A stretch of 64,000 nucleotides of DNA, from contig JAJSAM010000024.1 of the NCBI GenBank assembly GCA_024274785.1, positions 27,880-91,879 of the forward strand, given 5' to 3'. Of this stretch, positions 5,711 through 51,930 are shown piece by piece. Position numbers and translations under genes: made by a program. A model generated the notes under the pieces. That model was not told where the DNA came from. It did no database searches and saw only the letters and a program-made list of their open reading frames with translations. Source of the stretch: Planctomycetota bacterium. Its GTDB lineage: Bacteria; Planctomycetota; JAJSAM01. Each line of letters opens with the position of its first letter. Within the stretch, counting starts at the first letter, position 1.

Positions 5711-6462
5711 TCACGACCGCAGTTGCGCTGCTGGTTTCGTTCGCCTTCGTCCTTTCCGGCTGCCAGAACGGTTCGCCTCCGAACGGTAAGGGGGGGAGCC
5801 AGCCGGCCGGAAGCGCCGGAGTCAAGGCGCCGGCACCGGGAGCGAAGTTCCTGGGGGGGCAGCTTGTGCTCGAGTCCATCTCGGTTCCCGCCTCGGCCGG
5901 CCAGCCGGTCACCGTGGTCCTGAAGAACGTCGCCGGGCAGGCGCTCGAAGGGCTGACCATTCAGATGATCTTTCTGAGTCCATCCACGGACGGGATGTCC
6001 GAGTTCGACAGCGAGAAAGTCATCGACGAGGTCAACAAGCTCTACAAGAACGAGAGCCACACCCTCTCCGTGAACCGGGGCGGTCGCGGCAAGCTCCTGG
6101 AAGTCAGGCTGAACGTGAGTTCCGGAGAGACCCGGTTCATGCCGACCACGACCCGGGAGGGCGGTGTTCCGGGCAGCCGGCTGCTCGGCGGACTCCTCGA
6201 GGTCGTCGGAGTGGATAACCGGCTGACCTTCGAACCTCCGTCCATCTCCTTCACCGTGGAGAACGTCTCGAACAAGGTGGTCGAGGGCTTCGGGTTCCAG
6301 GTTGTTCTGCGGCAGAGGAACGGGAAGCTCGTGGAGACTCGCTGGCAGGAGGTGGTCGAGAGCCTGCCTCCCGGGGGGAAGCTCACGTTGAGCGCGGATC
6401 TCTCCGGCAATGACGTCGGAGCCGCCGAGTCCGTTCTCAAGATCAGGTGGGAAGACATCTAG
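5692..6462 (+). CDS. Lipoprotein, hypothetical
   Basis: ATG at 5692, overlapping the upstream gene by 19 nt. MRTRILITTAVALLVSFAFVLSGC is a lipobox signal peptide. About 230 aa of predicted beta-rich periplasmic domain follow. Confidence 0.6.
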   Translation: MRTRILITTAVALLVSFAFVLSGCQNGSPPNGKGGSQPAGSAGVKAPAPGAKFLGGQLVLESISVPASAGQPVTVVLKNVAGQALEGLTIQMIFLSPSTDGMSEFDSEKVIDEVNKLYKNESHTLSVNRGGRGKLLEVRLNVSSGETRFMPTTTREGGVPGSRLLGGLLEVVGVDNRLTFEPPSISFTVENVSNKVVEGFGFQVVLRQRNGKLVETRWQEVVESLPPGGKLTLSADLSGNDVGAAESVLKIRWEDI

Positions 6463-6466
6463 CCAG

Positions 6467-9400: not shown

Positions 9401-10459
9401 GTCGCCCTGGCGGAAGCCAGCCAGTTGGAGAAAGCCGCGGTTCTGAGTTCCGATCCCGCGAAGTGGACGAAGCTCGGCGTCTTTTTCGGGGAGAAGCTCG
9501 AGCAGGACGGTGACGTCATCGCTTTCCGGGAGGGTCGCGAATTCGCCAAAGCCATGTCGGCGGCGACATCCGTTCCGGAAGGCGATCTGCTGGCCGTCAA
9601 GGCCGCATACGAGGCGGCCCTCGACAAGGTGGGTACCGATACCAACGTCGCCAAGAACCGCACCGAGATGATCAAGGATGCCATCCGCCCCATCGATGGC
9701 GCCTTGCGGGAAAACTTCGAGGGTGAGGTCTCCCGGGCCGAGAACCTGGAGGGGCGGGGCGACTGGCCGGGGGCCTACGGGATCTATGATCAACTGCGCT
9801 CGAGCCAGGCGGCCGGCGCGGTGAAGAGCGACATCGCCAGGGACCTCGAGGTCGGGCGGATGTTCTGCCGGGCGATGATCGACGCCGGGGCGGAGGAGGG
9901 AAGTACCCGGCTGGCGAGCCTGCGGGCCGCGGTGCCTCTGATCGGCGACAGATCACGAATGCGTGGGATCCGGCTCGGGAAGATCAACGAGGCCAAGGCC
10001 GCCACGTTGAAGACGTGGATCGCGGAGATCGGCAGGAACGCCGGGGACGACTGGCGGTTGGCCTCGAGTGAGTATACGAAGGTCCTGGCGGACCCCGCGG
10101 TGAACGAGGATGCGAAGCTCAAGGCGGAGGTGCTTCGGCGGCAGCAGTTCGCCGAGACGTTGACCCAGGCCCAGACCCTCTACGAAAACGGACAATACGA
10201 GAAGGCCGTGCTCTTTCACGAGGACGCCAGGAAGACCCCGGATGCGAGCGCGGGTGACCTCGAGGCCGCCGAGACCGGCCGCCTGGCGGTGATCGCCGCC
10301 TGGAAGAAGAGCGTGAGGACCCGGATCCGGAGCGCCCGTGCGGGGGGGGACATTACCCCCGAGCAGTACTACGTGAAGATCATATCGGAGCTCGCGGACA
10401 TGTCGCGGGTCCTGGGTGTGGATCCGGAAACTCTCTACCGAGAGGTCACTGGAGACTAG
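6467..10459 (+). CDS. Ser/Thr protein kinase with N-terminal and central zinc ribbons, a long TPR region, one TM helix and a C-terminal domain
   Basis: Hanks kinase motifs (VAMKV, HRDIKPEN, DFGLAK, GTPHYMSPE). CxxC pairs at CPKCGG/CTHCGE and CPKCE/CRECG/CPHCG/CGECG. TPR-like helices, then the TM segment LLMVVASLAVLFLIQF. Confidence 0.85.
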   Translation: MADLSLNCPKCGGSVNVPIEEDVKEYVCTHCGEKNALHDNLGLMGGHYTDPLIGAVVSEWEIQEKVGEGGFGSVYRAYDKNLQRAVAMKVMLPSLTSNLEFVQKFIREAITAAQLNHPNIVGIHRVGRDEERNLHFLVMEFLEGKTLSDIIEETGEFAIDEAISIISQCSDALAVAHDKNIIHRDIKPENLMMDAAGTVKITDFGLAKTMSTDQKSTKVMGTPHYMSPEQFEGKAVDGRTDIYSLGVTFYYMLTKAQPYEGTNTVQIIYSILTQDPKPVMDLNPEVPEEIWRIIKKMIAKDSADRYENFREVRTDLSNFQDGSQSQKVVCPKCEVSNVRGRRFCRECGTSLQIRCPHCGSEEVAGTRHCGECGANVENLIQIRENLGRGEKLRAFGDLKRALGFYQEVLQLDPDHAEAHEATKAIRDDLLSIEAKKARVDALVEEGNAEGALAEVDGLMSNYPKIDEVKTYGQTVRRSLLHRVVDAHMLHAEQCLQKGELESALEAYQKALGVDPDRADVAEKQRDLKTRMAAMEQTLASAETALSDGRHEDALRAARDVLNLKPDHPRANEIQEEAKRFVDSVGGFVKEARELIERSDFIQAISRLEMAAEISPGDGSVQSLLAEAVRRRDAFDEKIGSARRLLADGSLDEAESEVKEALAERPDDAAALGLKREVDDLLASRAKHLENEALVKEGLDAEHQGDLERAKKCLNRALTRDPENDAAVIALDRLKSKITEAKRLRTVAQSHSDKGEFGLAAATLDELAELLPGDRSVLEEAEAAKQKQDGIDQALQHASQAVAAKNFDAALVAAEKVLAASPQNRPALNFQREAVRGKAAIEKHLEEARGLIESELFDDALALLEKAGELGATADSVERLRDAAEEGKVLLLKSEATRAFEFKDFKGAEERFSQIIELGKDDPDAVKGLKLAGKMIRRGERETVLPKLLMVVASLAVLFLIQFKALQGESTFDPVDPVQVALAEASQLEKAAVLSSDPAKWTKLGVFFGEKLEQDGDVIAFREGREFAKAMSAATSVPEGDLLAVKAAYEAALDKVGTDTNVAKNRTEMIKDAIRPIDGALRENFEGEVSRAENLEGRGDWPGAYGIYDQLRSSQAAGAVKSDIARDLEVGRMFCRAMIDAGAEEGSTRLASLRAAVPLIGDRSRMRGIRLGKINEAKAATLKTWIAEIGRNAGDDWRLASSEYTKVLADPAVNEDAKLKAEVLRRQQFAETLTQAQTLYENGQYEKAVLFHEDARKTPDASAGDLEAAETGRLAVIAAWKKSVRTRIRSARAGGDITPEQYYVKIISELADMSRVLGVDPETLYREVTGD

Positions 10460-16496: not shown

Positions 16497-17471
16497 ATGC
16501 TGCCCATGCGATTCCCACTGATCGTTTTGCTCGTCATCACCCTGCTGGCCTCCTGCGGGTCGCCGCCGCCCACTCTTGCGCCGAAGAACGGAGGCATCGA
16601 GGGGCCGGTGTCGAAGGGGCCCACGCCGGAGGAACTCGAGCGTCTGCTCGGCAATGACGAGAAGGACTATCCGCTCTATCCCGGCGATCTCCTCCGGATC
16701 ACGGTCCAGGGCCACGAGGACCTCACGATCGAGCGGAAGATACCCGCGTCCGGCCGGATTCCCCTCTATGGACTGGATACCACCGATGCGGACGGCGGCA
16801 ATCCCCGGGTCACGGAGGTCGATGTCGCCGGACTCCGGCTGCCACAACTGGAGCAGAAACTCGCGACGCTCTACAAGCGGATCGTCAATCCTCCTTACGT
16901 GACGGTGAAGGTCGTGCAGTTCGCGCCGAAGGTGATCTATGTGGCTGGTGCGGTGGGTGGCCCGCGGGACTACCGGCTGCCGGATGAGACCCGGATCTCG
17001 CTGGTGCAGGCGCTGACGATGGCCGGGTGGTTCACCGAGGACGCGGCGAAGGACCGGGTCCGGGTGATCCGCGTGGATCCCCAGACCGGAGACCGGGTCC
17101 ACCTGCCGGCGATCGACGTGACGAAGATCATCTCGAGCGGCGACTCCGCCTGGGACATCCTGCTCCTACCCGGCGACACCATCACCGTCGACTCCCACGA
17201 GAGCAAGACCGTGTCTATCTTCGGACACGTGGAGCGTCCCGGCGAATATCCCTGGTCCCCGGGGATGACCCTGACGCGGCTGATCACCATCTCCGGCGGT
17301 CTCCGCACTTTCGCCAAGATGACGAACATCCGTGTCCTTCGGTCGGGGGTCGGTGGTAAAGAGGAGGATGGGGCCTACCACGTGGATCTGAAGGCCGTCC
17401 TCGACGGTGAAGAGCCGGACTACGAACTGGAGCCCGGCGACCGGATCTGGGTAGACGAGAGGTTCATCTAG
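16497..17471 (+). CDS. Polysaccharide export OPX protein (Wza-like, short form lacking the C-terminal OM-spanning helix)
   Basis: Lipoprotein signal LLVITLLASC. Poly_export motif YPLYPGDLLRITV. SLBB-like repeats. Ends without a C-terminal amphipathic helix. Confidence 0.8.
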   Translation: MLPMRFPLIVLLVITLLASCGSPPPTLAPKNGGIEGPVSKGPTPEELERLLGNDEKDYPLYPGDLLRITVQGHEDLTIERKIPASGRIPLYGLDTTDADGGNPRVTEVDVAGLRLPQLEQKLATLYKRIVNPPYVTVKVVQFAPKVIYVAGAVGGPRDYRLPDETRISLVQALTMAGWFTEDAAKDRVRVIRVDPQTGDRVHLPAIDVTKIISSGDSAWDILLLPGDTITVDSHESKTVSIFGHVERPGEYPWSPGMTLTRLITISGGLRTFAKMTNIRVLRSGVGGKEEDGAYHVDLKAVLDGEEPDYELEPGDRIWVDERFI

Positions 17472-19969
17472 TGAATCGTGGTGCGGTCCTCGCCCACTAT
17501 CTCGGCATCGTCAGGAAGCACTGGCTCCTGATCCTCATCATCGCCGCGGTGGTGCTCGGCTCCGGGTACTACTACCACAGCCGCCAGGTTCCCGTCTTCG
17601 AGGCGAAGGCGAAGCTGAAGATCCTGAAGAAATCGCGCAACCGCACCAGCGGCGACGTACCCCTGTCCTTCGAAGAGGACCAGGTCTTCTACAACACGCA
17701 GTACAACCTTCTGCGGACCCAGCTCGACTGGGCGGACAAGGTCCTCGACCGCGCGGCCTGGCTGATGATCGGTGCCTTCGACGTTCCGTACCAGGATGAC
17801 CCGGAAGGGGCTGGAGCGCTGGTGGCGGAGGCGCTGCCCGCGGCCCTCGAGGCGAGCCTCTTCGATGTGCTCGACAACCACGCGGATGGGGAATTCGACC
17901 TCCTCGAGATCGAACGCGACCCGGTGGCGAGAGCGGCCGTTGCGTCGGTTCGGGCGAAGGCATTCGTCGGAGTCTACAACCTGGATCCGGACACCTTCTT
18001 GGCGGGGGTCAAGGTCAGTCCGGTGCCCGGCACCTATCTCGCGGAACTCAGCTTTCAGGCGAGGGATCGGGGGGTGGCGGTCTTCTTCGCGAACCTCTAC
18101 GCGGAGCTTTATCGGGATGAGTCCAAGGGTGAGCGGGAGGAGATTCTCGAGAAGGAACTCGCCAGGCTGAAGGCGGTCCGGGACCAGCTCGAAGGAGATC
18201 CGAATGACAAGAACGATTTCGGGGATCTGGGCCGGGCCAGGAAGGCTCTCAAGCAGTTTCCGGCCACGGCGAAGAACAAGTCGATTCTGGTCGGGGACCG
18301 GAAGAACGTCTTCCAGGAGGAGGCGGACGTCGTCGCCGGCAAGATCAACAGCCTGGAGACGGAGCTGATCGCGCGCCAGACGGAGGAAGACGGATTGCTC
18401 GAGATTCTCGCCGAGCACGGCGTTTCGCTCGTCAGGAAGGAAGGTGCGGCGGAGGATGGACGAGAGGCCGAAGCGGAGGGTGAGGTCGAAGGGCTGATCA
18501 TCGACGGGGACGATGAGAAGAAGCAGAAGACGCTCCTGTTCCTCGCCGAGACGCAACCGATCCTCCGCCACCCGGTCCTGGGGCGCGACGAGACGGTGGC
18601 CCTCTATCGGGGGCGGGTGCGTGCGGCGGAGCAGGAGTTCCTCGAACTGCCCCGCGATCTCACCGACGAGCATCCTCAACGGCAGAAGGTTCGGGCGAAG
18701 CTCTCTCAGTCGAAGCTTCAACTCGGTGTGCAGGTGGAAGCGAGTATCGTCCGGTACCTCCTGACCGGTCGGGAAATCTCTCAAACGATCGAGATGCTGT
18801 ACGCCCGCCTCGAGAAGAAGCGTCAGGCGGCCGCGGTGTTGAACCGGGAGATCGTCGAACTCCAGCAACTGAATGAGGATGTCGGCACTCTGGTCGAGGA
18901 GAAGGCCGCGCTCGATCGGCGGTGGGACCTTCTGCAGGAGATGAAGAGACAGGCCGCGGATGTCGATGCCGGCAACACCGATATCCAGAACATCCACATG
19001 GTTCGCCGCGCGCGCCTGCGGGATGCCCGCCAGACGCAGCCGAACACCAGCCTGATTCTGGCGATGACCGTCCTCTCCGCGGTCTTCCTCTCCTTCGGGG
19101 CGGCATTCCTGATCGAGTTCCTCGACGACACGATCAAGACCAAGGCCGACTTCGAACGTTTCGTCGACGTGCCCCACCTCGGGTACATCCCCTCCATCAA
19201 CGTGAAGGAGTACCGGAACAAGGACATCGCGGTGCTCGAGAAACCACGATCGGGGGTCGCCGAGGCCTTTCGCTCCATCCGCACCGCCATCCTCTTCTCC
19301 AAGAAGGACCGGGAGATCAAGAGCCTGATGCTCACTTCAGCCGGTCCCGGTGAAGGTAAGACCACCGTGGCGGTGAACATGGCCGTGACCATGGCGCAGG
19401 CTTCCAGCGGGAAGGTGCTGCTCATCGATGCCGACCTGCGAAAGGCCCGGGTGCACAAGGCCCTCGGCCTGGACAACAAGCTCGGCCTGACCAACCTGCT
19501 CATCGGCAGCGTGAGTCTGGATGAGGTCACACAGGCGAGCCTCGTGGATGGTCTCGATGTGATCACCGCCGGTCCGCCGCCTCCGAACCCCGCCGAACTG
19601 CTCGGCGGGGATCGCATGGGGGCGATCCTGGAGGAGGCCAAGGGGCGGTATACCAAGGTGATCATCGACACGCCGCCGTTGGTCGCGGTCACCGATGCCT
19701 GCCTGCTGGCTCCGCTCGTGGAGGGTGTCTTTCTGGTGATCTCCGTCGGCAAGACCTCCTGGCGCCTGATCCAGAGAGGGAAGGAGTCGCTATCCTCGGT
19801 GGGCGTCGAGACAACCGGCGCGGTTCTGAACAACATCCGCATCGGCGGCCCGGGCTATGGCTACGGCTACGGCTATGGTTATGGATACGGGTACGGCTAC
19901 GGCGGCTATCACCATGAAGACGTGGAAGAAGCGGGGGAACCGGACGGCGGCAAAGCAGTGAAGCAGTAA
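17471..19969 (+). CDS. Polysaccharide co-polymerase / BY-family tyrosine autokinase (Wzc/EpsB-like)
   Basis: GTG start overlapping the Wza stop. N-terminal TM helix, long periplasmic coiled coil and a second TM helix. Cytoplasmic Walker A (SAGPGEGKTT), Walker A' (VLLIDADLRK) and B motifs. C-terminal GYGYGYGYGYGYGYGGY tyrosine cluster. Confidence 0.85.
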   Translation: MNRGAVLAHYLGIVRKHWLLILIIAAVVLGSGYYYHSRQVPVFEAKAKLKILKKSRNRTSGDVPLSFEEDQVFYNTQYNLLRTQLDWADKVLDRAAWLMIGAFDVPYQDDPEGAGALVAEALPAALEASLFDVLDNHADGEFDLLEIERDPVARAAVASVRAKAFVGVYNLDPDTFLAGVKVSPVPGTYLAELSFQARDRGVAVFFANLYAELYRDESKGEREEILEKELARLKAVRDQLEGDPNDKNDFGDLGRARKALKQFPATAKNKSILVGDRKNVFQEEADVVAGKINSLETELIARQTEEDGLLEILAEHGVSLVRKEGAAEDGREAEAEGEVEGLIIDGDDEKKQKTLLFLAETQPILRHPVLGRDETVALYRGRVRAAEQEFLELPRDLTDEHPQRQKVRAKLSQSKLQLGVQVEASIVRYLLTGREISQTIEMLYARLEKKRQAAAVLNREIVELQQLNEDVGTLVEEKAALDRRWDLLQEMKRQAADVDAGNTDIQNIHMVRRARLRDARQTQPNTSLILAMTVLSAVFLSFGAAFLIEFLDDTIKTKADFERFVDVPHLGYIPSINVKEYRNKDIAVLEKPRSGVAEAFRSIRTAILFSKKDREIKSLMLTSAGPGEGKTTVAVNMAVTMAQASSGKVLLIDADLRKARVHKALGLDNKLGLTNLLIGSVSLDEVTQASLVDGLDVITAGPPPPNPAELLGGDRMGAILEEAKGRYTKVIIDTPPLVAVTDACLLAPLVEGVFLVISVGKTSWRLIQRGKESLSSVGVETTGAVLNNIRIGGPGYGYGYGYGYGYGYGYGGYHHEDVEEAGEPDGGKAVKQ
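19857..19906 (+). repeat. In-frame (GGCTAY)n microsatellite encoding the Wzc (GY)n tyrosine cluster
   Basis: ggctatggctacggctacggctatggttatggatacgggtacggctacggc. Confidence 0.7.
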
Positions 19970-41259: not shown

Positions 41260-43380
<2,121 letters not shown>

Positions 43381-43389
43381 GAAACTCCC

Positions 43390-45891
43390 ATGATTCGAAC
43401 TCCAGCCCTGATGGCCTGCCTGGTGCTCACCGTGGTGGCCTGCGACGCCGGCGTCGCCCCGCCCGCGCCGCCGTCGCCGGCCGTCGCATTTTCGCCCGAC
43501 CTGATTCGTACGAAAGAGTGGGAGATCTATCACCAGTGGGCCGGTCGCATCGCCGAGGTCGTCGCCGAGGTCGTCGATGAAGACGGTCAACCGTACGCCG
43601 GGGCGACCGTCTCCGTGATCATCCTTCCCCGGATGGAGGTTCTTCCGCCTCTGGTGATCGCCGTTCAAGTCAGCGACGAGAAGGGCGAGGTCCGCTTCGA
43701 GGATGTCCCCGGGAATGCCTTCCTCCGGATGGAGGCGGATGGGTTCGCGGGTGGCATGTTGGACCTGCAGTTCGCGATGAATCCGGACTTCGGATCACCG
43801 AAGATGCCCTTGCGCCGGGGCTCAGAGGTTTCGGGGCGGGTTCTCCTTCCGGATGGGACACCGGCCCCCGGCGTTCGGGTGATCGGCATGAGTTCGGTTC
43901 GCGACTGGTACGAGCTGGCGACGGCCGATGAGGATGGGCGGTATCGGTTGTACCCGGTTCCCGCGGGACAGATCATGCTGATGGCCATCCCCGGTGGGCC
44001 GATCGGTCAGTTGCCGCCGTTCGATGTCCCCACGGGCCTTGACGTCACCAGAGACTTGTCGGTCCGTGCGCTCTCGCCCATTCACGGGCGCGTGCTCGAT
44101 GCGAACACGGGAAAGCCGGTGGCCGGTGCGATCGCGCGGTCCTTTGTCGATCGGGATGTGCTCGTGGTGGCCGATGATGAGGGACGGTTCACCCTCGAAA
44201 ACGTCTACGGGCGGATGATCGACATCCTCGCTCCGGGCTATGCGGAACGCTCCGTTCCCGTCGATGCGATGCGGGCGGATGCCATCGATGTCGAGGTGAA
44301 GCTCGCCCCCGGTGTAACGGCCCGGGGGGTGGTGGTCGACGAAGAGGGCGCTCCGCGCGCCGGCGCGAGGGTCTTCGCGGTGGTGGATGTCGAGGGCGTC
44401 GGTCGCTATGTGCTTGGGCCGTTGACGGATGAGCTGGGACGGTTTGTCTGGAGTTGGATCGAACCCGCCCGGACCGGCGGGAAGATCGTCTTCGGCGCGG
44501 AGGGGGCGGGTCTGCTGCCGGTAGTCGGCTCGATCCATCCGCTCGTGCCGGGGATTTCGATCGACGACATTGTCCTGACCCTTCCGGAACCGTCCCGGCT
44601 TCGCTTTCGGTTGATCGATGAGCAGGGGGAACCCCTCGTCGATGCCGTCTGCCTGGCTGAGCCCGATCTGGAGGCCGTGCCGTCCGGGGTCAGGCCGATG
44701 GTCAACACCGGGGGGACGGCGGTCACCGCTGAAGATGGGAGCGCGCTGATGGCGGGGCTCCGGCGGGGCCCCCACTTCCTGAGCATCCTGCTCGGTCATC
44801 GCATCCCCTTCTCCACCGGGATCAATGTCGGCCCGGGGATGAACGACCTCGGCGACATCACGGTGCCGGACCTCCTGGCGATCGCGGGGCAGGTGCTCAG
44901 CACCGGCGGCGAGTTGCCGGATATGGTCAAGGCTTTCCTGTCGATCCCCGGTGAGAGCTTCCAGGCGGAGGTTCGTATCGGCAAGGATGGGAAGTTCCGG
45001 ATTTCCGGGCTGGCGGATCGGCAGTACGTGCTGCAACTGGCGGCGTCGGACCACCGGACCGTGACGAAGCGGTATGCCGCCGGCACCGAAGACATCCAGG
45101 TCCGGTTGACCCTCCTCGGGAAGCTCTCCGTTACCCCGCTGCTCGAAGGAGACGACCAGCCCGAGGGGCGGATCGAGATGGTGAGGGTGGGCGGTGCGGA
45201 AGCGCCGGTGATGCGGTTCTTCAACCGCCCGGGAGAGGCTGTCATGGCCAATCGGATGACGCCTGGAGACTGGTTCGTCCGCGTGAAGGCCGGTGAGTAC
45301 TATGGAGCGGCGAAGGTCACCGTCATCGGGGGGAAGTCGGAATCCGTTCAGGTTCAGCTTCACCCCGGCGGTACGATCCACGGGTTCGTCAGGAAGCCCG
45401 ACGGCACGCCCGCAAAGCGAATTGGAGTGCAGTACGACGGCGGCGAGGCCTGGGGCGTACACGGTGTTCCCGTGGGCGACGACGGGCAGTATCGATTGGT
45501 GGGCGTCCCCGCCGGCGAGGTCGAGTTGTTGACCCACCCGCGAGGGTTCGTTCCGTTTCGCAAGACGATCGTGGTGATCAACGGAGAGGAAACCCGGCAG
45601 GACATCGAACTCGATGCCGGGGGACGGTTCGAATTGCGCGTCACTGATCCGGACGGAAAACCCCTCTCCGCCGTGAAGGTCGGCCTGGCCGATGACCAGG
45701 GTGTGCCGGCCCGCTACTGGATCAGTGGGCAGGATCGAGCCCGGACCGATGAGGACGGCGTGCTGACCCTGACGGGAGTTCCACCGGGCAGCTATCGATT
45801 GAGCCTGCACATCAAGGACCAGCTTTGGGAATCGAGACAGGTGGACATTCCGGCGGGGGAGAGCAAGCTGGTCATCGAAATCGATCGGTAG
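43390..45891 (+). CDS. Large lipoprotein with about 8 tandem CarboxypepD_reg-like beta-sandwich domains
   Basis: Signal/lipobox LMACLVLTVVAC. Recurring about 80-aa modules with G(R/F)V.D..G.P..GA.V signatures (e.g. VSGRVLLPDGTPAPGVRV, IHGRVLDANTGKPVAGA, IHGFVRKPDGTPAKRIGV). Confidence 0.6.
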   Translation: MIRTPALMACLVLTVVACDAGVAPPAPPSPAVAFSPDLIRTKEWEIYHQWAGRIAEVVAEVVDEDGQPYAGATVSVIILPRMEVLPPLVIAVQVSDEKGEVRFEDVPGNAFLRMEADGFAGGMLDLQFAMNPDFGSPKMPLRRGSEVSGRVLLPDGTPAPGVRVIGMSSVRDWYELATADEDGRYRLYPVPAGQIMLMAIPGGPIGQLPPFDVPTGLDVTRDLSVRALSPIHGRVLDANTGKPVAGAIARSFVDRDVLVVADDEGRFTLENVYGRMIDILAPGYAERSVPVDAMRADAIDVEVKLAPGVTARGVVVDEEGAPRAGARVFAVVDVEGVGRYVLGPLTDELGRFVWSWIEPARTGGKIVFGAEGAGLLPVVGSIHPLVPGISIDDIVLTLPEPSRLRFRLIDEQGEPLVDAVCLAEPDLEAVPSGVRPMVNTGGTAVTAEDGSALMAGLRRGPHFLSILLGHRIPFSTGINVGPGMNDLGDITVPDLLAIAGQVLSTGGELPDMVKAFLSIPGESFQAEVRIGKDGKFRISGLADRQYVLQLAASDHRTVTKRYAAGTEDIQVRLTLLGKLSVTPLLEGDDQPEGRIEMVRVGGAEAPVMRFFNRPGEAVMANRMTPGDWFVRVKAGEYYGAAKVTVIGGKSESVQVQLHPGGTIHGFVRKPDGTPAKRIGVQYDGGEAWGVHGVPVGDDGQYRLVGVPAGEVELLTHPRGFVPFRKTIVVINGEETRQDIELDAGGRFELRVTDPDGKPLSAVKVGLADDQGVPARYWISGQDRARTDEDGVLTLTGVPPGSYRLSLHIKDQLWESRQVDIPAGESKLVIEIDR

Positions 45892-45943
45892 CTGGATCCG
45901 GCGGTCGAAGTTCCGGTTGGGGTGATATCGAGGAGGCATCGTC

Positions 45944-48589
45944 ATGTTGAACTTGAGGATCGACGATGAAAGCGGCTCGCGCAGTGTGCCGCTGCCCGGG
46001 GGGCCGGTGATCGTGGGGCGAGGCGAGAGTGCCGCGATCCGCCTGACCGAGGTCAAGGCCTCTCGAGAGCACCTCGAAATCCGGCCCCTCGGCAACGGCG
46101 TGGTGGTGCGGGATCTCGGATCGACCAACGGGACGTTCACGGAGGACCGGCGGATCCTGAAGGCCCGGCTCGGCTCCGGGGATGCCTTCCGCATCGGCGA
46201 CACGTGGATCACTCTGGAAGCGGAGCCGTCGCGCTCGGAACGTCAGCCGCGCAAGACTCCCGTCCCCGCGATCCTGCTTACGCTGCTGGCCCCCGCCCTG
46301 GTGCTGCTCATTCTCGGCGAGTTGGGAGTCTCCGCGATCGCATCGGCGCGGCAGGAGAAGATTGACTCAGCGATGCTTCGGATCGAACGCGTCGAGTTCG
46401 AGATGGCCGGTCGGGAGTCCGACCCGGAAAAGGCCGTGGCCGCCCTCGCTCGCTTCACCAGGCGGTATCCGCGCTCCCGGTACGCGCCGGAGGCTGATCG
46501 CCGCCAGGCGGAGATTCTGCCGACGGTGCGGCGGATGCAGATCGCCCGTCAGGAACTCGCCGAACTCGAAGCCGGGACGGAGCGGTACGCTTTCGAGGAA
46601 CTCTACTATCGGTACGAGAAGCTCTACGAGAGCTATCGTAGCCTGCCGGAGATCGCCGCCCGGATCGGCAGCCGGCTGGCCGACCTCGACCGGACGCATC
46701 GCGAGAAACTCGTGGCGATGGTCGATGCGGTTCGCGAAGAGGCGACGTCCCTTGCGGCGAAAGGGGAGTATGGTCGGGCGGTTTCGGCCCTGACCTCCTT
46801 CACCGTTCGGACGCCGGCGGCGGCGGCGAGTTTCAGGGAGGAGATCCGCTCGGCCGAGGCCGAGCTGATGCGGCGCGCGGAGAAGGCCTACCGCGAGTTG
46901 ACCGCCAATGCCGAAGGACTCGCCAGAGATGGCAAGACCGCGGAGGCGGCCGCATTGCTTCGTCGGGAAGCCCCGCGTTTCCTCGGGATCCGTTTCAGCG
47001 CTTTCCTCCGCCTGAGGGCCGATGACTTCGATAGTCGGGGCCGGCCCCGCAGTGCGAGGAAGGAAACCGTCGATCAGCTCACCCTGAGGCGCAGCTACTA
47101 CCTTCTGGCGCAGGAGGCCGAGGAACTCGCCGCCGCCGGGCTCTTCACCCGGGCCGCCGGGAAGTATCGCGGGATCCTCGAGTCGATCGCGCTGCCGGAG
47201 GTCCGGAAGGAGTTCTCGGAGCGTTCGGACGAGCTGTTCCGGCTCTCCGCGCTCATCGCCGACGTTCGCGGGAAGATCAAAGAACGCGGTTCGAAGTTCG
47301 GGTCGGTGAACTTCTCCGGCACGAGGGTCCGGGTCAAGGGCATCGTCGGCGACACGCTGCAACTCGAGATTGCAAAGCAACCGATCACCCGCCAGTGGGA
47401 CTCGCTCGAACCGCGGGAACTGCTGGCTCTGTTCCGCCGGGCACGGCTCACGAAAGAGCAGCGGCTCGATGTGGCGGTGTACTGTTTCGACATGAACCTG
47501 GCCGGGGCGTTCGAGGAGGAGATCCTGGCTGCGCTCGGCGAGGAGAGCCTGAAGGAGAAGGCCGGCCGGCTCTATGCCCACAAGCGGGGTGTTCGTTACC
47601 CCGAGGGCGGCTTTGTGGCCTACAAGGGCCGCATCCTGACCGGGGCGCAGTACGCCGAAGAGGTTCACAAGGAGCAGGTCGTGAAACTCCGGGTTCGCCA
47701 GGTGGAACTCCTGGAGCGGATCCAGGAGCAGCCGGTGATGAAGAAGCTCGCCCGGATGCGCGAACTCCGTCTGAAGCTCGACAAGGCCCGGAAGGTCGCG
47801 CTGGCCCTCATCTTCGACGAGCAGACCTACTTCTACCCCTATCGGGATCGCATGGCCGAGTACATCCCGGTACAGAAAGAGGTGAGCGAGCGCGTCGCCG
47901 TGGTGCGGGACATCTGGGACAACCCACTGAAGATCAGCACGAAGTCGGACCGGTCGGTGTCCTCGCTGCTCGACGAAGCGGACGAGTCCGTCAGGGCCCT
48001 CCGTGATCTGGGCATCGACCCCACCGCCTTCGCCGACCGCGTGGCGGCGATCCGGCTGTACCTGGGGCGGACCTTCACGATCAGGAACTACTTTCACGAC
48101 CAGGCCGAACTGGACCTCTTCACCTACAACGACCACGTTCTGGCTTATAACAAGACCGTCGAGTCGGTGGCGAAGAAGCTCGAGCGGAGACAGGTCGCCG
48201 TCACGAACGCATACCGCCTGATGATGGGACGCAACGCCCTGGTGCTCCACGACCTGCTCGTCCGGACCGCGCGGGGACACAGCGACGAGATGAACAAGCT
48301 CGGCTACTTCAGCCACTTCTCACCGACCGAGGAGCGGCGGACGCCGAACATGCGGGCGAAACTCGAGGGCTACAAGGCCACGGCGCTCTCCGAGAACATC
48401 CACCGCGGCTCCGGAACTCCGGAGGGGGCGCATGACAGTTGGATCCATTCGAGCGGCCACCACCGGAACATCCTGCAGAAGTTCTGGACGGAGATGGGCA
48501 CCGGTCAAGTCGGGAAATTCTGGACGCAGAACTTCGGTCGATCCCGGTTCAAACAGTTCGATCAGGAAGACAAGAACGAGAAGAAGTAG
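45944..48589 (+). CDS. FHA-domain / single-pass TM protein with a long periplasmic helical region and a C-terminal CAP (SCP/PR-1-like) domain
   Basis: AGGAGG RBS. FHA (VIVGRGESAAIRL...GSTNGTFTEDRRI). TM helix VPAILLTLLAPALVLLILGEL. C-terminal HSSGHHRNIL...WTEMGTGQVGKFWTQNFG is CAP-like. Confidence 0.7.
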   Translation: MLNLRIDDESGSRSVPLPGGPVIVGRGESAAIRLTEVKASREHLEIRPLGNGVVVRDLGSTNGTFTEDRRILKARLGSGDAFRIGDTWITLEAEPSRSERQPRKTPVPAILLTLLAPALVLLILGELGVSAIASARQEKIDSAMLRIERVEFEMAGRESDPEKAVAALARFTRRYPRSRYAPEADRRQAEILPTVRRMQIARQELAELEAGTERYAFEELYYRYEKLYESYRSLPEIAARIGSRLADLDRTHREKLVAMVDAVREEATSLAAKGEYGRAVSALTSFTVRTPAAAASFREEIRSAEAELMRRAEKAYRELTANAEGLARDGKTAEAAALLRREAPRFLGIRFSAFLRLRADDFDSRGRPRSARKETVDQLTLRRSYYLLAQEAEELAAAGLFTRAAGKYRGILESIALPEVRKEFSERSDELFRLSALIADVRGKIKERGSKFGSVNFSGTRVRVKGIVGDTLQLEIAKQPITRQWDSLEPRELLALFRRARLTKEQRLDVAVYCFDMNLAGAFEEEILAALGEESLKEKAGRLYAHKRGVRYPEGGFVAYKGRILTGAQYAEEVHKEQVVKLRVRQVELLERIQEQPVMKKLARMRELRLKLDKARKVALALIFDEQTYFYPYRDRMAEYIPVQKEVSERVAVVRDIWDNPLKISTKSDRSVSSLLDEADESVRALRDLGIDPTAFADRVAAIRLYLGRTFTIRNYFHDQAELDLFTYNDHVLAYNKTVESVAKKLERRQVAVTNAYRLMMGRNALVLHDLLVRTARGHSDEMNKLGYFSHFSPTEERRTPNMRAKLEGYKATALSENIHRGSGTPEGAHDSWIHSSGHHRNILQKFWTEMGTGQVGKFWTQNFGRSRFKQFDQEDKNEKK

Positions 48590-48648
48590 CTCCGGGGATT
48601 CCCGGAAGGTCAGGCAGCGCAGGAAGCCACAGCAGGAAGTCACGATCC

Positions 48649-49953
48649 ATGTCCAAGCTGACTATTCACGAGAACGAGCGCGCAACCGTCTACGAGATCC
48701 TCGAGGATTCCCTCACGATCGGGTCCCGGCAGGGCTGCGGGATCAGAGTGAGCGATCCGGTGGTCTCCTCCGAGCATTGCCAGATCACGCTGGTGCCCGG
48801 GGTGGGCTACAAGCTGATCGATCTCGAGAGCCGGGACGGAACGAAGGTCAATGGCGCCTACGTCAACCAGCACCTGCTCCGGGAGGGTGACGTTATCCAG
48901 ATCGGCGCCGTCCGGATCAGCTTCACCGGCGGAGCGCCCGCAACTTCGGCTCCCGGGCCCGCTGCCGCCCCGGTCGCCGCCAGTCCCGCGGTTCCGGCCG
49001 CCCCGGCGCGTCCCGTTCCCGCGGCCGCCCCGGTCCGGCCCGCGCGCCCGTCCGCCCGGCCGAAGTACGCCGGCTATCCCTCGGAGCCGCCGCGTGAGTA
49101 CCGCCAGCCAAGGCGAGGCCGTGGGGGGGACAGCAGCGCCATCATCCTGATGGGAGTGGCCGTCGGTCTGTTGCTCGTGGTGGTCATCGTCATTGCCGTC
49201 GTCAGTTCCGGATCCGGAGCTACCGGCAACGAGAGGATCCTCCTGGAGATGGAGCAGCTGATGTCCAACCATCGGTACCAGGAAGCCATCGACCTCGCCG
49301 GGCAGGCCGACCCCACCGGTGATCCGAGCACCCTGGCCAAGATCGAGTTGAACAAGCAGGGTGCCGCGAACCTGAAGGCAAGGAAGGGCGGGATCAACGC
49401 GGAGAATGCCGCCCTGGTTGCCTACCAGAGAGTCGAGAGTTGGATCCAGAAGCATCGGCAGGACATCCCCGGCTCCATCAAGCAGTGGGAAACCATGGCC
49501 CGCGACCACGCCGGCACCCACTGGGCCTTCAAGGCAAAGCGGAACATGGACGCCCTCCTTTCCGGCGGCCGGAACCCCGAGGGGATTACGCTCTACCCCG
49601 GTGGTGCGGCCACCATCGACCGAGCCTTCACCGAGGTCCAGACGAACGCGAAGGCTCTGGAGGAACAGGAGAAGTTCCAGGCCGTCATCACCTCCTTCTT
49701 CGACTTCTGGGAGGAATACAAGCTCAAGACCACCGACCTGGCGACCTGGGAGAAACGGGTCCAGGACGAGGTCAAGGCCGTCGAGCGTCGAGCCGAATCC
49801 CGCTGGGAGAGTCTGGACTCCCTCGCGAAGCAGTATGTGAAGAACGGTGAGTACGACGCCGCAAAGCGGATGTACCGGAAGGTCACGGACAATTTCGGAA
49901 TCGAGAAGTACGTGGTGCAGGCCGAGGCGGCGCTGAAGAAGATCGGGCGTTAG
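48649..49953 (+). CDS. FHA-domain protein with a Pro/Ala-rich linker, a TM helix and a periplasmic domain
   Basis: FHA (LTIGSRQGCGIRV...ESRDGTKVNGAYV). Linker PAAAPVAASPAVPAAPARPVPAAAPVRP. TM helix AIILMGVAVGLLLVVVIVIAVV. About 230 aa lie outside the membrane. Confidence 0.7.
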   Translation: MSKLTIHENERATVYEILEDSLTIGSRQGCGIRVSDPVVSSEHCQITLVPGVGYKLIDLESRDGTKVNGAYVNQHLLREGDVIQIGAVRISFTGGAPATSAPGPAAAPVAASPAVPAAPARPVPAAAPVRPARPSARPKYAGYPSEPPREYRQPRRGRGGDSSAIILMGVAVGLLLVVVIVIAVVSSGSGATGNERILLEMEQLMSNHRYQEAIDLAGQADPTGDPSTLAKIELNKQGAANLKARKGGINAENAALVAYQRVESWIQKHRQDIPGSIKQWETMARDHAGTHWAFKAKRNMDALLSGGRNPEGITLYPGGAATIDRAFTEVQTNAKALEEQEKFQAVITSFFDFWEEYKLKTTDLATWEKRVQDEVKAVERRAESRWESLDSLAKQYVKNGEYDAAKRMYRKVTDNFGIEKYVVQAEAALKKIGR

Positions 49954-50047
49954 GGGACGCGCAAGAATAACCACGGGATTCGAGGGTCGCCGCTGCATCC
50001 CGCCCGGCTGCGTGCTCGTCGGTTGAGACCGGCCAGGCTTCGCTCCG

Positions 50048-51154
50048 CTACTCCTCGTCCCGCCCGCCTTTCCGGCGCTCCACCAACTCTTCGATCCTGT
50101 GCTCGAGTGCGGCGATCCGGTCGAGGAGGATCTCGTTGGTCTTGTCGATCTGCTCGTTCCGCATTTCGAGGTGCTGGGCGAAACGTTCCATGTGCATCGC
50201 CATCTCCTCGAATCGTCGCTCCATCTCTTCGATGCGCCGGTCCGTCTCCTCGAAGCGCCGGTCCGTCTCCTCGAAGCGCTCGTCCGTCTCCTCGAAGCGC
50301 CGGTCCGTCTCCTCGAAGCGCCGGTCCGTCTCCTCGAAGCGCTCGTCCGTCTCCTCGAAGCGCCGGTCCGTCTCCTCGAAGCGCCGGTCCGTCTCCTCGA
50401 AGCGCCGGTCCGTCTCCTCGAAGCGCTCGTCCGTCTCCTCGAAGCGCCGGTTGACGTTCCGCTCCCGTTCCCGCTCGTCGTCGACTTCAGGACGCCGACG
50501 GTCCTTCCGGTGAGCCCGAAGGAACCGCTCCGCCTCTTCACCGGGGATCCCAAGCCGCTCGGCCAGGTGGATGAACTCGCGGCGAAGCTCGCGCGTCTCG
50601 TCCTCACGGCGTTCCTCACGGAACGGCCGCGCTCGCTCGGTCCGTTCGCGGGTTCCGGCGGATCGCCGTTCGAGTTCGAGTCGTCTCTTCCCCCGACGGA
50701 ATGCCTCTTCCAGTTCCTCACCCCGAAGCCCCTGCGCCTTGAGCTCCCGCTCCAGTTCCTCGAGTCGTTCCGCCCGTTCCCGCTCTTCCCCGCCCCGGAC
50801 CGGCCGCGGTTCAACGCGATCCGCGAGGATCCGCTCGAGCTGCTCCGCCCGATTGAGGAGCTTCTCCCAGCCCTCGTAGCGCTCCGCAATGGCGCCGAGC
50901 TGCTCTCGGGAAGCATCGAATCGCCCGGCGTCGATCAGCGTCTCGACCAGGAGCAGGTGAGACCGGGGTGTGAAGACGGCGTCGTCCGGCCACTCCCGAA
51001 TGACGAGCCGGAAGGCGTCGATCGCCTCCTCCAGCTTCCCCTGTTCCTTCAGAGCGCAGGCGCGTTCCAGGTGCGTGGCGATCTCGCCTTCCGCCAGGAG
51101 GTTGCCCGACAGGGCGACAAGCAGGGTGAGGGCGATCATGACCCGGATGTACAT
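50048..51154 (-). CDS. Secreted Arg/Glu-rich protein with an N-terminal TPR-like region and a heptad tandem-repeat region (RRFEETD)n
   Basis: ATG at 51154 after AAGGAGACG. Signal peptide MYIRVMIALTLLVALSGNLLAEG. Ten perfect plus two degenerate RRFEETD/ERFEETD heptads. Confidence 0.65.
   Translation of the reverse strand: MYIRVMIALTLLVALSGNLLAEGEIATHLERACALKEQGKLEEAIDAFRLVIREWPDDAVFTPRSHLLLVETLIDAGRFDASREQLGAIAERYEGWEKLLNRAEQLERILADRVEPRPVRGGEERERAERLEELERELKAQGLRGEELEEAFRRGKRRLELERRSAGTRERTERARPFREERREDETRELRREFIHLAERLGIPGEEAERFLRAHRKDRRRPEVDDERERERNVNRRFEETDERFEETDRRFEETDRRFEETDRRFEETDERFEETDRRFEETDRRFEETDERFEETDRRFEETDRRIEEMERRFEEMAMHMERFAQHLEMRNEQIDKTNEILLDRIAALEHRIEELVERRKGGRDEE
50203..50457 (-). 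repeat. 21-bp in-frame tandem repeat, about 12 copies, two alternating variants
   Basis: Plus-strand units gcgccggtccgtctcctcgaa and gcgctcgtccgtctcctcgaa repeated head-to-tail. They encode RRFEETD / ERFEETD on the minus strand. Confidence 0.85.
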
Positions 51155-51222
51155 GGCAACGTCTCCTTGCGCGATTGTCCGATGTACCAGCATAACCGCG
51201 AGTCGGCGAAGGTCGAATGAGA

Positions 51223-51822
51223 TCACCGCAAGAGGCGCGCGAGGACGACACCGGCGAGCTCCATCGGCGGTTCATCCCCACGTACGACCAGGTCCGCTCG
51301 CGTGCGTTCGGGTTCAACGAATTCGGAGAACATCACGGCCACTGAGGTCGACCATTGGATCCGGACGGATTCTTCGGTGCGCCCTCGCTCCCGCGTATCC
51401 CGCTCGATGCGGCGCGCCAGCCGGACCGAATCCTCGAGGTCGACGAAGACCATGCCGTCGAGGAGCGCCCTCAGCCCCGGGTACGCGCCGATCAGCGTGC
51501 CCTCGATCAGGACCACCTCACGAGGCTCGACCCGGATCGGTTTCGGGGTACGTGTGTGCGTGGTCATGTCGTAGACCGGTCGTGGAATCGCTCGTCCGTC
51601 TTCGAGCGCTCGAACGTGTGCAGCGAGCAGGTCGAATTCGATGGCGTCCGGGTGATCGAAGTTCCTCGTGGCGCGAGCTTCAGGCTCGAGATGCGCGAGG
51701 TCGCGGTAGTAGTCATCCTGGCGCAGGATGGAGGTTGATTCCTTACCGAGGAGGGTGGCGACCGCACCAAGCAGCGTCGACTTGCCGGATCCCGATCCTC
51801 CCGTGATGCCGAGAACTCTCAA
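51223..51822 (-). CDS. udk: Uridine kinase
   Basis: TTG start at 51822 after GGAGGAG. P-loop GITGGSGSGKST. PRK/uridine-kinase motifs (QDDYY, DHPDAIEFDL). Confidence 0.75.
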   Translation of the reverse strand: MRVLGITGGSGSGKSTLLGAVATLLGKESTSILRQDDYYRDLAHLEPEARATRNFDHPDAIEFDLLAAHVRALEDGRAIPRPVYDMTTHTRTPKPIRVEPREVVLIEGTLIGAYPGLRALLDGMVFVDLEDSVRLARRIERDTRERGRTEESVRIQWSTSVAVMFSEFVEPERTRADLVVRGDEPPMELAGVVLARLLR

Positions 51823-51930
51823 GGCCTCTCCTCCGGGGAGAGCACCGTGCGATCCGCCGCGGCATCGAAGGCCGTGCGTTCGATCGGGGGAGGACCGACG
51901 GCGGGAGTTTCCGTCGGAAGGACGCAACCA

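What the first reader, a model, noticed from the sequence alone, without database searches (positions are those of the whole stretch)
50203..50457. 21-bp in-frame tandem array encoding an (R/E)RFEETD heptad repeat in a secreted Arg/Glu-rich protein
There are about 10 perfect and 2 degenerate copies with only two alternating unit variants (CGCCGG vs CGCTCG), which implies recent expansion. The encoded heptads are extremely charged, and the whole C-terminal half of the protein is R/E-rich coiled-coil-like, while the N-terminus has a signal peptide and TPR-like helices. The array is a strong candidate for copy-number variation (a length-variable surface or periplasmic protein). The gene is convergent with the last gene of the FHA operon.
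Basis: seen in the sequence. Interest (0 to 1): 0.5.

Follow-up and report, generated by a model that had tools for sequence, protein, structure and literature searches.

The report
Heptad repeat expansion in exported protein
A 21-base unit repeated about twelve times, in frame, lengthens the rod-like helical tail of an exported protein of unknown function in an uncultured planctomycete; the repeat is real and evolutionarily young, but it is an ordinary kind of repeat expansion and whether its length varies between strains could not be tested.

Summary
A 21-bp tandem array (50201-50452, minus strand) lies in frame in a 368-aa gene (50048-51154). It has 10 near-identical units (6 DRRFEET, 3 DERFEET, 1 NRRFEET) followed by 2 degenerate units.

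The protein has a Sec-type signal peptide, a roughly 90-aa TPR module, a charged helical middle with an invariant REFxHLAERLGIP motif, and a C-terminal helix that AlphaFold2 predicts as one 142-residue rod.

Ten orthologues were found, with conserved udk / gene / convergent FHA-protein synteny. None carries the array, but they keep the founder heptad (EKRFEEL, EERFEMR). The array is therefore a lineage-specific, in-situ and recent expansion that adds about 10 heptads (roughly 10 nm).

More than 100 other database hits match only the array. They are DUF3782 / PD-(D/E)XK nuclease stalks built from FxETD heptads, which I read as convergence, not homology. Close relatives in those families differ by whole heptads.

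Copy-number variation of this gene could not be tested because no second copy of the locus is in any collection. "Coiled coil" is uncertain: there is only one hydrophobic residue per heptad, so a charged single alpha-helix is equally possible.

Verdict: ordinary kind, low-to-moderate interest.

The parts
50048..51154 (-). Gene for a 368-aa exported TPR and charged-helix protein (start ATG 51152-51154, stop 50048-50050)
   Evidence: - ORF.
- The start is fixed by the N-terminal alignment with 10 orthologues.
- GC3 is 0.84, like neighbouring genes.
- The antisense ORF 50099-51220 is a shadow frame.
51163..51168 (-). Shine-Dalgarno-like AAGGAG, 8 nt upstream of the ATG
   Evidence: Read from the upstream sequence printed.
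51089..51154 (-). Signal peptide, residues 1-22 (MYIRVMIALTLLVALSGNLLA|EG)
   Evidence: - Hydrophobic core with Kyte-Doolittle values of 2-3 over residues 1-12.
- It aligns with the ALA|DE, LRA|QE and LAA|QE sites of orthologues.
- There is no Cys, so no lipobox.
- No SignalP-type predictor was available.
50813..51088 (-). TPR module, residues 23-114 (five helices)
   Evidence: - Pfam TPR_19: 25.4 bits against a cutoff of 25; 10 of 11 family members match.
- Profile hits to TPR and PPR structures in the PDB, E = 2e-8 to 4e-14.
- AlphaFold2 helices with pLDDT around 90.
- Foldseek matches only TPR domains, for example LpoP with a target-normalised TM-score of 0.79.
50453..50812 (-). Charged helical middle region, residues 115-234 (30% R+K, 29% D+E)
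   Evidence: - Composition; AlphaFold2 helices.
- It is shorter than in the orthologues, which carry extra G(V/L)xxEE(I/L) modules.
50510..50584 (-). Family signature motif RREFIHLAERLGIPGEEAERFLRAH, residues 191-215
   Evidence: It holds most of the invariant and nearly invariant columns of the 11-member alignment A2. No Pfam or NCBIfam family covers it.
50243..50452 (-). Ten near-identical 21-bp units (residues 235-304): N/D-(R/E)-R-F-E-E-T
50201..50242 (-). Two degenerate units (DRRIEEM, ERRFEEM; residues 305-318), which are the ancestral founder heptads
   Evidence: - Unit sequences.
- The same heptads are conserved in array-less orthologues: P0115 RRLEVMEKRFEELAMHMERF and P0001 RRLAEMEERFEMR.
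- ERRFEEM differs from the expanded unit by ATG to ACG and GAG to GAC.
50051..50200 (-). Remaining C-terminal heptad-periodic helix, residues 319-368
   Evidence: AlphaFold2 predicts one helix over residues 226-367 with pLDDT above 90. Position a is hydrophobic in 90% of 20 heptads.
51223..51927 (-). Upstream co-directional uridine kinase (PRK family) gene; conserved neighbour
   Evidence: Pfam PRK, E = 1e-35. The same udk-then-gene order is seen in L003. No terminator-like site lies between the two genes.
48649..49953 (+). Convergent gene for an FHA, transmembrane and periplasmic helical protein; conserved neighbour
   Evidence: Pfam FHA. It is 34% identical over its full length to the convergent neighbour of orthologue P0064 in L003.

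Best explanation
**What it is**
- The array is a young, lineage-specific, in-frame minisatellite. It arose in situ by replication slippage or unequal recombination of a single heptad of a pre-existing heptad-periodic C-terminal helix.
- The founder heptad ERRFEEM became DRRFEET through two point changes. It was then amplified, partly as three-unit (63-bp) blocks after an R-to-E change in one unit.

**What it does to the protein**
- Because the unit is exactly seven codons, the helical phase is preserved.
- The only effect is to lengthen a rigid, very acidic, salt-bridge-rich alpha-helical rod by about 10 heptads, roughly 70 residues or 10 nm.
- This gives a predicted continuous helix of about 142 residues (about 21 nm).

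**How the protein probably works (inferred, not shown)**
- It belongs to an uncharacterised family of a deep Planctomycetota lineage.
- It is exported by the Sec pathway to the periplasm.
- Its N-terminal TPR module is the partner-binding head, and its helical tail acts as a spacer or oligomerisation stalk.
- It may act with the adjacent FHA-transmembrane protein, whose periplasmic domain is also helical.

**Shown:** the array, its frame, its youth, its absence from orthologues, the founder heptad, the TPR module, the predicted helix and the synteny.

**Inferred:** export, the spacer role, the partnership with the FHA protein, and any copy-number variability.
For: **Array and gene**
- Array anatomy and its improbability by chance.
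- Coding strand and start codon: orthologue alignment, GC3 and the Shine-Dalgarno-like site.

**Comparison with orthologues**
- Ten orthologues were found. All lack the array.
- They retain the founder heptads and have C-terminal helices of variable length.
- P0127 has independently expanded an 11-residue unit in the same helix.

**Structure**
- AlphaFold2 predicts a single helix over residues 226-367 with pLDDT above 90.
- Position a is 90% hydrophobic over 20 heptads.
- The array has 28 (i,i+4) and 29 (i,i+3) opposite-charge pairs in 84 residues and a net charge of -17.
- TPR head.

**Context**
- The order udk, gene, then convergent FHA protein is conserved at about 30% protein identity.

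**Analogous arrays elsewhere**
- Analogous FxETD and ERFEKID heptad arrays differ by whole heptads between proteins that are at least 90% identical: P0010 (241 aa) against P0272 (227 aa), and P0031 and its relatives at 267, 260, 274 and 239 aa.
- Arrays of this kind therefore do expand and contract in nature.
Against: - Only one copy of this locus exists in the available data, so the recency of the expansion is inferred from identity at synonymous sites alone. Copy number and variability are unverified.
- If the contig comes from short reads, a 250-bp array of 21-bp units could be mis-counted.
- Export rests on inspection and alignment, not on a predictor or an experiment.
- The AlphaFold2 model is a monomer built from a 4-sequence alignment (pTM 0.32) and says nothing about oligomeric state.
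- With T at position d, the array is a poor canonical coiled coil.
- No functional data exist for any family member. The synteny could reflect shared ancestry and not a shared function.
Confidence: 0.7

Rival explanations
1. The array is a contingency-type, copy-number-variable locus. Unit number changes at high frequency within the population and is selected to vary the length, or the antigenic or phage-exposed surface, of an envelope protein.
For: - Nine units are identical at the DNA level, which makes an ideal slippage substrate.
- Analogous heptad arrays in DUF3782-type proteins differ by 1-4 heptads among sequences that are at least 90% identical.
- The C-terminal helix length varies across the family.
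Against: - No second allele of this gene could be found.
- The nearest orthologue cluster (P0001 and 3 other members) is invariant at 343 aa and has no array.
- Nothing indicates surface exposure.
- In-frame units change length only and do not switch expression, so classical phase variation does not apply.
Confidence: 0.25
2. The array forms a charged single alpha-helix (an ER/K-type SAH) and not a coiled coil. It would be a monomeric, semi-rigid spacer or spring.
For: - The array has one hydrophobic residue (F) per heptad, T at position d and D at position e.
- It has dense i/i+3 and i/i+4 opposite-charge pairs: 57 in 84 residues.
- The FEETDRR pattern resembles the designed SAH heptad AEEEXXX, where X is K or R (abstract of PMC5347031).
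- AlphaFold2 predicts a straight helix for the monomer at pLDDT above 90.
Against: - A phenylalanine at every seventh residue forms a continuous stripe, which is unusual for SAHs.
- The net charge of -17 is far from the near-neutral SAH norm.
- The similar FxETD stalks of PD-(D/E)XK nucleases are treated as coiled coils (PMC4786415).
- The flanking heptads have proper hydrophobic core residues: I/M, F/M and M/F.
Confidence: 0.4
3. The array was acquired by recombination from a DUF3782 / PD-(D/E)XK nuclease stalk gene, and so is homologous to those arrays, not convergent with them.
For: - 88 of the 114 hits carry F[EKQDR]ETD heptads, and about 40 carry the exact hexapeptide RFEETD.
- E-values go down to 3e-26.
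Against: - The hits cover only 10-35% of the query, that is, the array alone.
- Their E-values are inflated by the repetition.
- The Pfam DUF3782 model does not hit the window protein at E <= 1.
- No nuclease domain is present.
- The founder heptad ERRFEEM sits at the array border. It is conserved in array-less orthologues and is two point mutations from the unit.
Confidence: 0.05
4. The array, or its exact copy number, is an assembly artefact.
For: - The perfect part (210 bp) exceeds typical short-read k-mers.
- The closest relative's contig (L004) ends 177 bp past the FHA gene, at the expected position of this gene.
- The L001 contig diverges from its near-identical relative L002 exactly at the founder heptad CGCTTCG.
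Against: - The array is in frame and in helical phase.
- It is flanked by degenerate units that grade into the conserved sequence.
- The R/E variant order is not periodic, unlike a collapsed or looped graph path.
- The window is a 64-kb contiguous sequence.
- The L004 tail shows no recognisable gene end, so it is uninformative.
Confidence: 0.1

Closest known systems
Heptad-repeat stalks of DUF3782 / PD-(D/E)XK (PDDEXK_10, NERD-like) prokaryotic nuclease-family proteins (Hartmann et al. 2016, PMC4786415)
   Same: - They have the same heptad chemistry: F at position a, T at position d, acidic residues at b, c and e, and basic residues at f and g. Examples are ARRFEETDRKFQETD in P0005 and P0003.
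- They are tandem arrays of 1-10 heptads.
- Copy number differs among close relatives.
   Different: - Their arrays are N-terminal and cytoplasmic, and are followed by a nuclease-like domain.
- The window array is C-terminal in a signal-peptide and TPR protein with no nuclease domain.
- The Pfam DUF3782 model does not match.
- The window array grew from a local founder heptad.
CpoB/YbgF (Tol-Pal associated periplasmic coiled-coil plus TPR protein) and LpoP-type periplasmic TPR proteins
   Same: - Both have a signal peptide, a small TPR module and an elongated region in the periplasm.
- A family profile weakly hits the CpoB TPR (6g5s, E about 1e-3).
- The LpoP TPR is the best structural superposition (target-normalised TM-score 0.79).
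   Different: - The domain order is reversed: here the TPR comes first and the helix last.
- TIGR02795 scores 14.9 bits against a cutoff of 90.1.
- There is no Tol-Pal context.
- The REFxHLAERLGIP motif is absent from CpoB.
Length-defining periplasmic coiled coils such as Braun's lipoprotein Lpp, where adding heptads widens the periplasm (Asmar et al. 2017, PMC5736177)
   Same: Inserting a whole number of heptads lengthens a periplasmic helical rod without disturbing its register.
   Different: - The protein has no lipid anchor or peptidoglycan-linking residue.
- Its function is unknown.
- The comparison is an analogy for what a length change could do, not a family relationship.
In-frame minisatellites (VNTRs) in bacterial coiled-coil or fibrillar envelope proteins
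   Same: Short DNA-identical units that are a multiple of 3 lie within a structural repeat, and they expand by slippage.
   Different: Polymorphism, the defining feature of a VNTR, has not been demonstrated for this locus.

Membership tests
TPR repeat proteins (Pfam clan, TPR_19 PF14559) | A match to a TPR profile above the gathering score | tested here: met
   - TPR_19 scores 25.4 bits against a cutoff of 25 at residues 37-93. This is marginal for the window protein.
- 10 of 11 family members match, with a best E-value of 8e-7.
- A family profile against the PDB gives TPR and PPR hits with E-values down to 4e-14.
TPR repeat proteins | A fold of paired antiparallel helices | tested here: met
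   AlphaFold2 predicts helices at 23-37, 41-54, 61-75, 79-92 and 97-114 with pLDDT around 90. Foldseek's best superpositions are all TPR domains.
DUF3782 (PF12644) / PD-(D/E)XK nuclease stalk proteins | A match to the DUF3782 profile | tested here: not met
   DUF3782 is not among the Pfam hits at E <= 1 for the window protein. P0005 and P0004 do hit it.
DUF3782 / PD-(D/E)XK nuclease stalk proteins | A C-terminal PD-(D/E)XK or NERD-like domain after an N-terminal stalk | tested here: not met
   The protein ends 50 residues after the array and has no nuclease domain hit. Here the array is C-terminal.
DUF3782 / PD-(D/E)XK nuclease stalk proteins | An FxETD-type heptad array | tested here: met
   The window has 10 RFEETD heptads. 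88 of the 114 hits carry F[EKQDR]ETD.
CpoB/YbgF (TIGR02795) | A score above the NCBIfam cutoff, with an N-terminal coiled coil and a C-terminal TPR | tested here: not met
   The score is 14.9 bits against a cutoff of 90.1, and the domain order is reversed.
Sec-exported (SPase I) proteins | An n-region, an h-region and a c-region with small residues at -1 and -3 | tested here: inconclusive
   - The sequence M-Y-I-R plus a hydrophobic stretch of about 13 residues plus NLLA|EG is compatible.
- -3 is Leu in the window, but orthologues have A-L-A|D.
- No signal-peptide predictor was available.
Canonical alpha-helical coiled coil | Heptad periodicity with hydrophobic residues at both a and d | tested here: inconclusive
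   Position a is 90% hydrophobic, but d is Thr throughout the array and only 19% hydrophobic overall. The oligomeric state cannot be tested with a monomer model.
Charged single alpha-helix (SAH, ER/K type) | Dense i/i+4 Glu-Arg/Lys pairs, few hydrophobic residues, a monomeric stable helix | tested here: inconclusive
   There are 28 i/i+4 and 29 i/i+3 opposite-charge pairs in 84 residues. However, there is one Phe per heptad and the net charge is -17. Monomer stability cannot be tested here.
VNTR / contingency locus | DNA-identical tandem units in frame | tested here: met
VNTR / contingency locus | Unit-number polymorphism among strains or reads | not testable with these tools
   - The window protein is absent from the protein collection.
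- There is no orthologous locus in the genome collection.
- There is one distant locus, without an array, in the metagenome collection.
- No reads are available.

The most novel reading that the evidence does not exclude
The protein is a length-tunable periplasmic ruler or spacer that works with the adjacent FHA-transmembrane signalling protein. In this reading the heptad number, and in P0127 the 11-residue unit number, is adjusted between lineages or strains to match envelope geometry in Planctomycetota. Separately, the exact RFEETD heptad has arisen here independently of the nuclease-stalk arrays. That would mark FxETD-(R/K)(R/K) as a privileged, expansion-prone helical building block.
Probability: 0.12. 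Interest if true: 0.55.

Novelty: new member of a known kind. Interest (0 to 1): 0.27.

Why it matters
- **The locus itself.** It is a clean natural example of how a helical rod grows: one heptad, two point mutations, then slippage in one-unit and three-unit steps, with the helical phase kept. If unit number proves polymorphic, the locus would be a convenient strain marker for an uncultured Planctomycetota lineage. It would also give a handle on the function of an uncharacterised exported protein family (TPR module plus the REFxHLAERLGIP motif).
- **The heptad chemistry.** The convergence on the same F/T-core, EE-D-RR heptad used by DUF3782 nuclease stalks suggests this heptad is a favoured, easily amplified structural module. 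That is of some interest to coiled-coil and single-alpha-helix biophysics and design.
- **Overall.** None of this is unexpected for in-frame tandem repeats in helical proteins.

Tried and rejected
- **Other alleles or orthologous loci.**
  - A genome-contig scan with the family alignment found no relative.
  - A metagenome-contig scan found only L001, a 1.6-kb array-less contig.
  - Exact look-up of the window protein with two alternative starts found nothing in the collection.
- **Closest genome.** L004 (Planctomycetota MAG Prado167, UvrD 63% identical) is syntenic from UvrD to the FHA-transmembrane gene. Its contig ends 177 bp later and its tail has no recognisable gene end, so it is uninformative.
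- **Function by family.** Pfam, NCBIfam, sequence and profile searches of the PDB, and Foldseek gave only TPR matches. The rest were generic coiled-coil noise such as SMC, Rad50, tropomyosin and MCPsignal, all far below their cutoffs.
- **Plus-strand and other-frame ORFs across the array** (for example 50099-51220, and 50023-50454). I rejected these as shadow frames: the orthologues align to the minus-strand frame, and codon-position GC fits that frame.
- **Non-coding readings.** CRISPR or another non-coding array is rejected because the units are contiguous with no spacers and are in frame. The promoter and terminator scan found nothing relevant; the one terminator-like site lies inside the gene at chance level.
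- Searches used segment boundaries from the 392-aa ORF numbering. One search gives the correct boundaries for the 368-aa protein. As a result, the query for included the first 3.4 heptads, but the listed orthologues match through the N-terminal region.

Full report
**1. The observation**

Tandem Repeats Finder reports one strong array in the whole window: 50203-50451, period 21, 11.9 copies, 91% matches, score 414.

I read the array in the codon register of the minus-strand ORF. It has twelve 21-bp units at 50201-50452:
- one boundary unit, AACCGG... (NRRFEET, 1 mismatch);
- six exact copies of GACCGGCGCTTCGAGGAGACG (DRRFEET);
- three exact copies of GACGAGCGCTTCGAGGAGACG (DERFEET);
- two degenerate units, DRRIEEM and ERRFEEM, with 3 and 4 mismatches.

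The 21-mer with up to 3 mismatches occurs 11 times in 64 kb, all inside the array, against 0.01 expected from shuffles.

The variants are ordered R E R R R E R R E R R R. This is not a strict alternation. DNA self-identity peaks at period 63 (0.966, against 0.931 at period 21), which suggests three-unit block duplications after a single CGG-to-GAG change.

All synonymous positions are identical among the nine perfect units. The expansion, or its homogenisation, is therefore recent.

**2. The gene**

The coding frame is the minus strand, 50048-51154 (368 aa). Three lines of evidence support this:
- The start ATG is preceded by AAGGAG 8 nt upstream.
- It aligns residue for residue with the N-termini of ten orthologues.
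- Codon-position GC (0.77 / 0.40 / 0.84) resembles neighbouring genes.

ORFs on the plus strand or in other frames across the array are shadows.

**3. The protein (368-aa numbering)**

- **Residues 1-22: Sec-type signal peptide.** The sequence is MYIRVMIALTLLVALSGNLLA|EG. It aligns to the ALA|DE sites of orthologues and has no lipobox. This rests on inspection, not on a predictor.
- **Residues 23-114: small TPR module.**
  - TPR_19 scores 25.4 bits against a cutoff of 25.
  - 10 of 11 family members match.
  - Family-profile hits to TPR and PPR structures have E-values down to 4e-14, and to CpoB about 1e-3.
  - AlphaFold2 pLDDT is around 90.
  - Foldseek finds only TPR domains, for example LpoP with a target-normalised TM-score of 0.79.
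- **Residues 115-234: R/E-rich helices.** These include the family's invariant motif RREFIHLAERLGIPGEEAERFLRAH (residues 191-215), which no Pfam or NCBIfam model covers.
- **Residues 235-318: the array.**
- **Residues 319-368: further heptads.**

AlphaFold2 predicts residues 226-367 as one uninterrupted helix with pLDDT above 90. This is a monomer model from a 4-sequence alignment, with mean pLDDT 83 and pTM 0.32.

**4. Relatives and origin**

The window comes from a deep Planctomycetota lineage. Its UvrD is 63% identical to that of MAG Prado167, and the next-best hits are about 45% identical and come from Phycisphaerae or Planctomycetota.

The protein itself is not in the protein collection. 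Ten orthologues were recovered: P0001, P0002, P0064, P0115, P0127, P0131, P0139, P0148, P0176, P0223 and P0234, where P0002 appears truncated or frameshifted.

All share the signal peptide, the TPR module, the charged modules, the REFxHLAERLGIP motif and a C-terminal helix. None has the array.

They do retain the founder region:
- P0115 has RRLEVMEKRFEELAMHMERF.
- P0001 has RRLAEMEERFEMR.
- The window has RRIEEMERRFEEMAMHMERF.

The expanded unit DRRFEET differs from the adjacent ERRFEEM by ATG to ACG and GAG to GAC. The array therefore arose in situ.

The C-terminal helix is generally plastic in this family. P0127 carries about six copies of an 11-residue unit (GLEREVAERLE-like) at the same place.

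Synteny is conserved at about 30% identity. P0064 lies between udk and a convergent FHA-transmembrane protein that is 34% identical to the window's FHA-transmembrane protein, and the FHA-CAP gene also follows it.

**5. The other 100-plus hits**

These match only the array, covering 10-35% of the query.
- They are proteins of 200-320 aa with an N-terminal run of F-x-E-T-D-x-x heptads, followed by a DUF3782, PDDEXK_10 or NERD-like domain.
- 88 of the 114 hits have at least one F[EKQDR]ETD heptad, and about 40 have the exact hexapeptide RFEETD.
- Hartmann et al. (PMC4786415) describe these as coiled-coil stalks of a prokaryotic PD-(D/E)XK endonuclease family, grouped in Pfam as DUF3782.
- The window protein does not hit the DUF3782 model at E <= 1 and has no nuclease domain. 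Given the local founder heptad, I read the resemblance as convergence on the same heptad chemistry.

Within clusters of at least 90% identity, these families differ by whole heptads:
- P0010 (241 aa) against P0272 and P0276 (227 aa), a difference of two heptads.
- P0031, P0292, P0293 and P0294 at 267, 260, 274 and 239 aa.

In each case the indels lie exactly in the arrays. Heptad arrays of this type are thus demonstrably length-polymorphic in nature. In contrast, the array-less P0001 cluster (4 members) is fixed at 343 aa.

**6. Structure of the array**

- **Register.** It runs F = a, E, E, T = d, D, R/E, R. Position a is 90% hydrophobic over 20 heptads, but d is Thr and e is Asp in the array. 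There is thus a single Phe stripe.
- **Charge.** The array is 45% acidic and 25% basic, with a net charge of -17. It has 28 i/i+4 and 29 i/i+3 opposite-charge pairs in 84 residues.
- **Two possible folds.** This fits either a polar-core coiled coil, as assumed for the nuclease stalks, or a charged single alpha-helix. Designed AEEEXXX heptads form single alpha-helices (PMC5347031). The two cannot be separated here.
- **Length.** Either way, ten extra heptads add about 70 residues, roughly 10 nm at 1.5 Å per residue.

**7. Function**

No family member has a known function. My best inference has three parts:
- The protein is an exported, periplasmic TPR adaptor on a rigid helical spacer.
- It may partner the adjacent FHA-transmembrane protein, whose periplasmic part is also helical or TPR-like.
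- The array changes only the reach of the protein.

The Lpp precedent shows that adding heptads to a periplasmic coiled coil can have physiological consequences (PMC5736177). That is an analogy only.

**8. Limits**

- Copy-number variation of this locus, the exact unit number if the assembly is from short reads, export, oligomeric state and partner are all untested.
- L004 ends 177 bp beyond the FHA gene and is uninformative.

**9. Verdict**

This is a new example of a known kind: an in-frame heptad minisatellite that lengthens a helical stalk, in an uncharacterised protein family. Interest is low to moderate.

Noticed in passing
window 41260-49953 (+): A run of co-directional genes with three FHA-domain proteins: an FHA-GAF-sigma54 activator (41260-43380), a protein with multiple CarboxypepD_reg domains (43390-45891), an FHA protein with a CAP/SCP domain (45944-48589), and an FHA-transmembrane-helical protein (48649-49953). 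The whole block, from UvrD onward, is syntenic in Planctomycetota MAG Prado167 (L004).
   Followed up: partly
P0127 (orthologue), C-terminal about 70 residues: An independent expansion in the same C-terminal helix, but with an 11-residue unit: GLDRELGEAHE, GVERELGESHE, RLEREIADRME, GLEREVAERLE, GLEREIGGFLE. The stalk of this family therefore seems prone to repeat growth with different periodicities.
   Followed up: no
L001 1449-1571 against L002 2199-2359: Metagenome contig L001 is 96.8% identical to the P0001 locus up to ...GAAGAGCGCTTCG, which lies in the founder heptad ERF. It then diverges completely to the contig end. This is either a chimeric contig end or a structural variant at exactly the place where the window's array sits.
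   Followed up: partly
L004 19315-19491: The contig of the closest available genome ends 177 bp after the FHA-transmembrane gene, where the convergent orthologue would be expected. The tail has no recognisable gene end. The break could be due to a repeat, but this is unproven.
   Followed up: partly
window 19853-19903 (+): A hexanucleotide repeat (GGCTAC) x 8.5 that encodes a Gly-Tyr dipeptide run (GPGYGYGYGYGYGYGYGYGGYH) near the end of the 17471-19969 ORF.
   Followed up: no
window 6410-10459 (+): A 1349-aa Ser/Thr protein kinase with a double zinc ribbon and many TPR repeats. Together with the FHA proteins, it suggests extensive phospho-Thr signalling in this genome region.
   Followed up: no
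Family alignment A2, columns about 200-340: The middle region of the family consists of a variable number of modules of about 30 residues, each starting G(L/V)(S/P)xEE(L/I). The window protein has the fewest: a block of about 55 residues present in P0001 is missing. P0148 and P0234 have extra, proline-rich inserts.
   Followed up: no
DUF3782-type clusters (P0010, P0031, P0090 and members): Proteins that are at least 90% identical differ by 7, 14 or 28 residues within their FxETD or ERFEKID arrays. This indicates widespread heptad copy-number polymorphism in nuclease-stalk proteins. Some members are annotated by their sources as "Holliday junction resolvase" or "archaellum component FlaC".
   Followed up: partly
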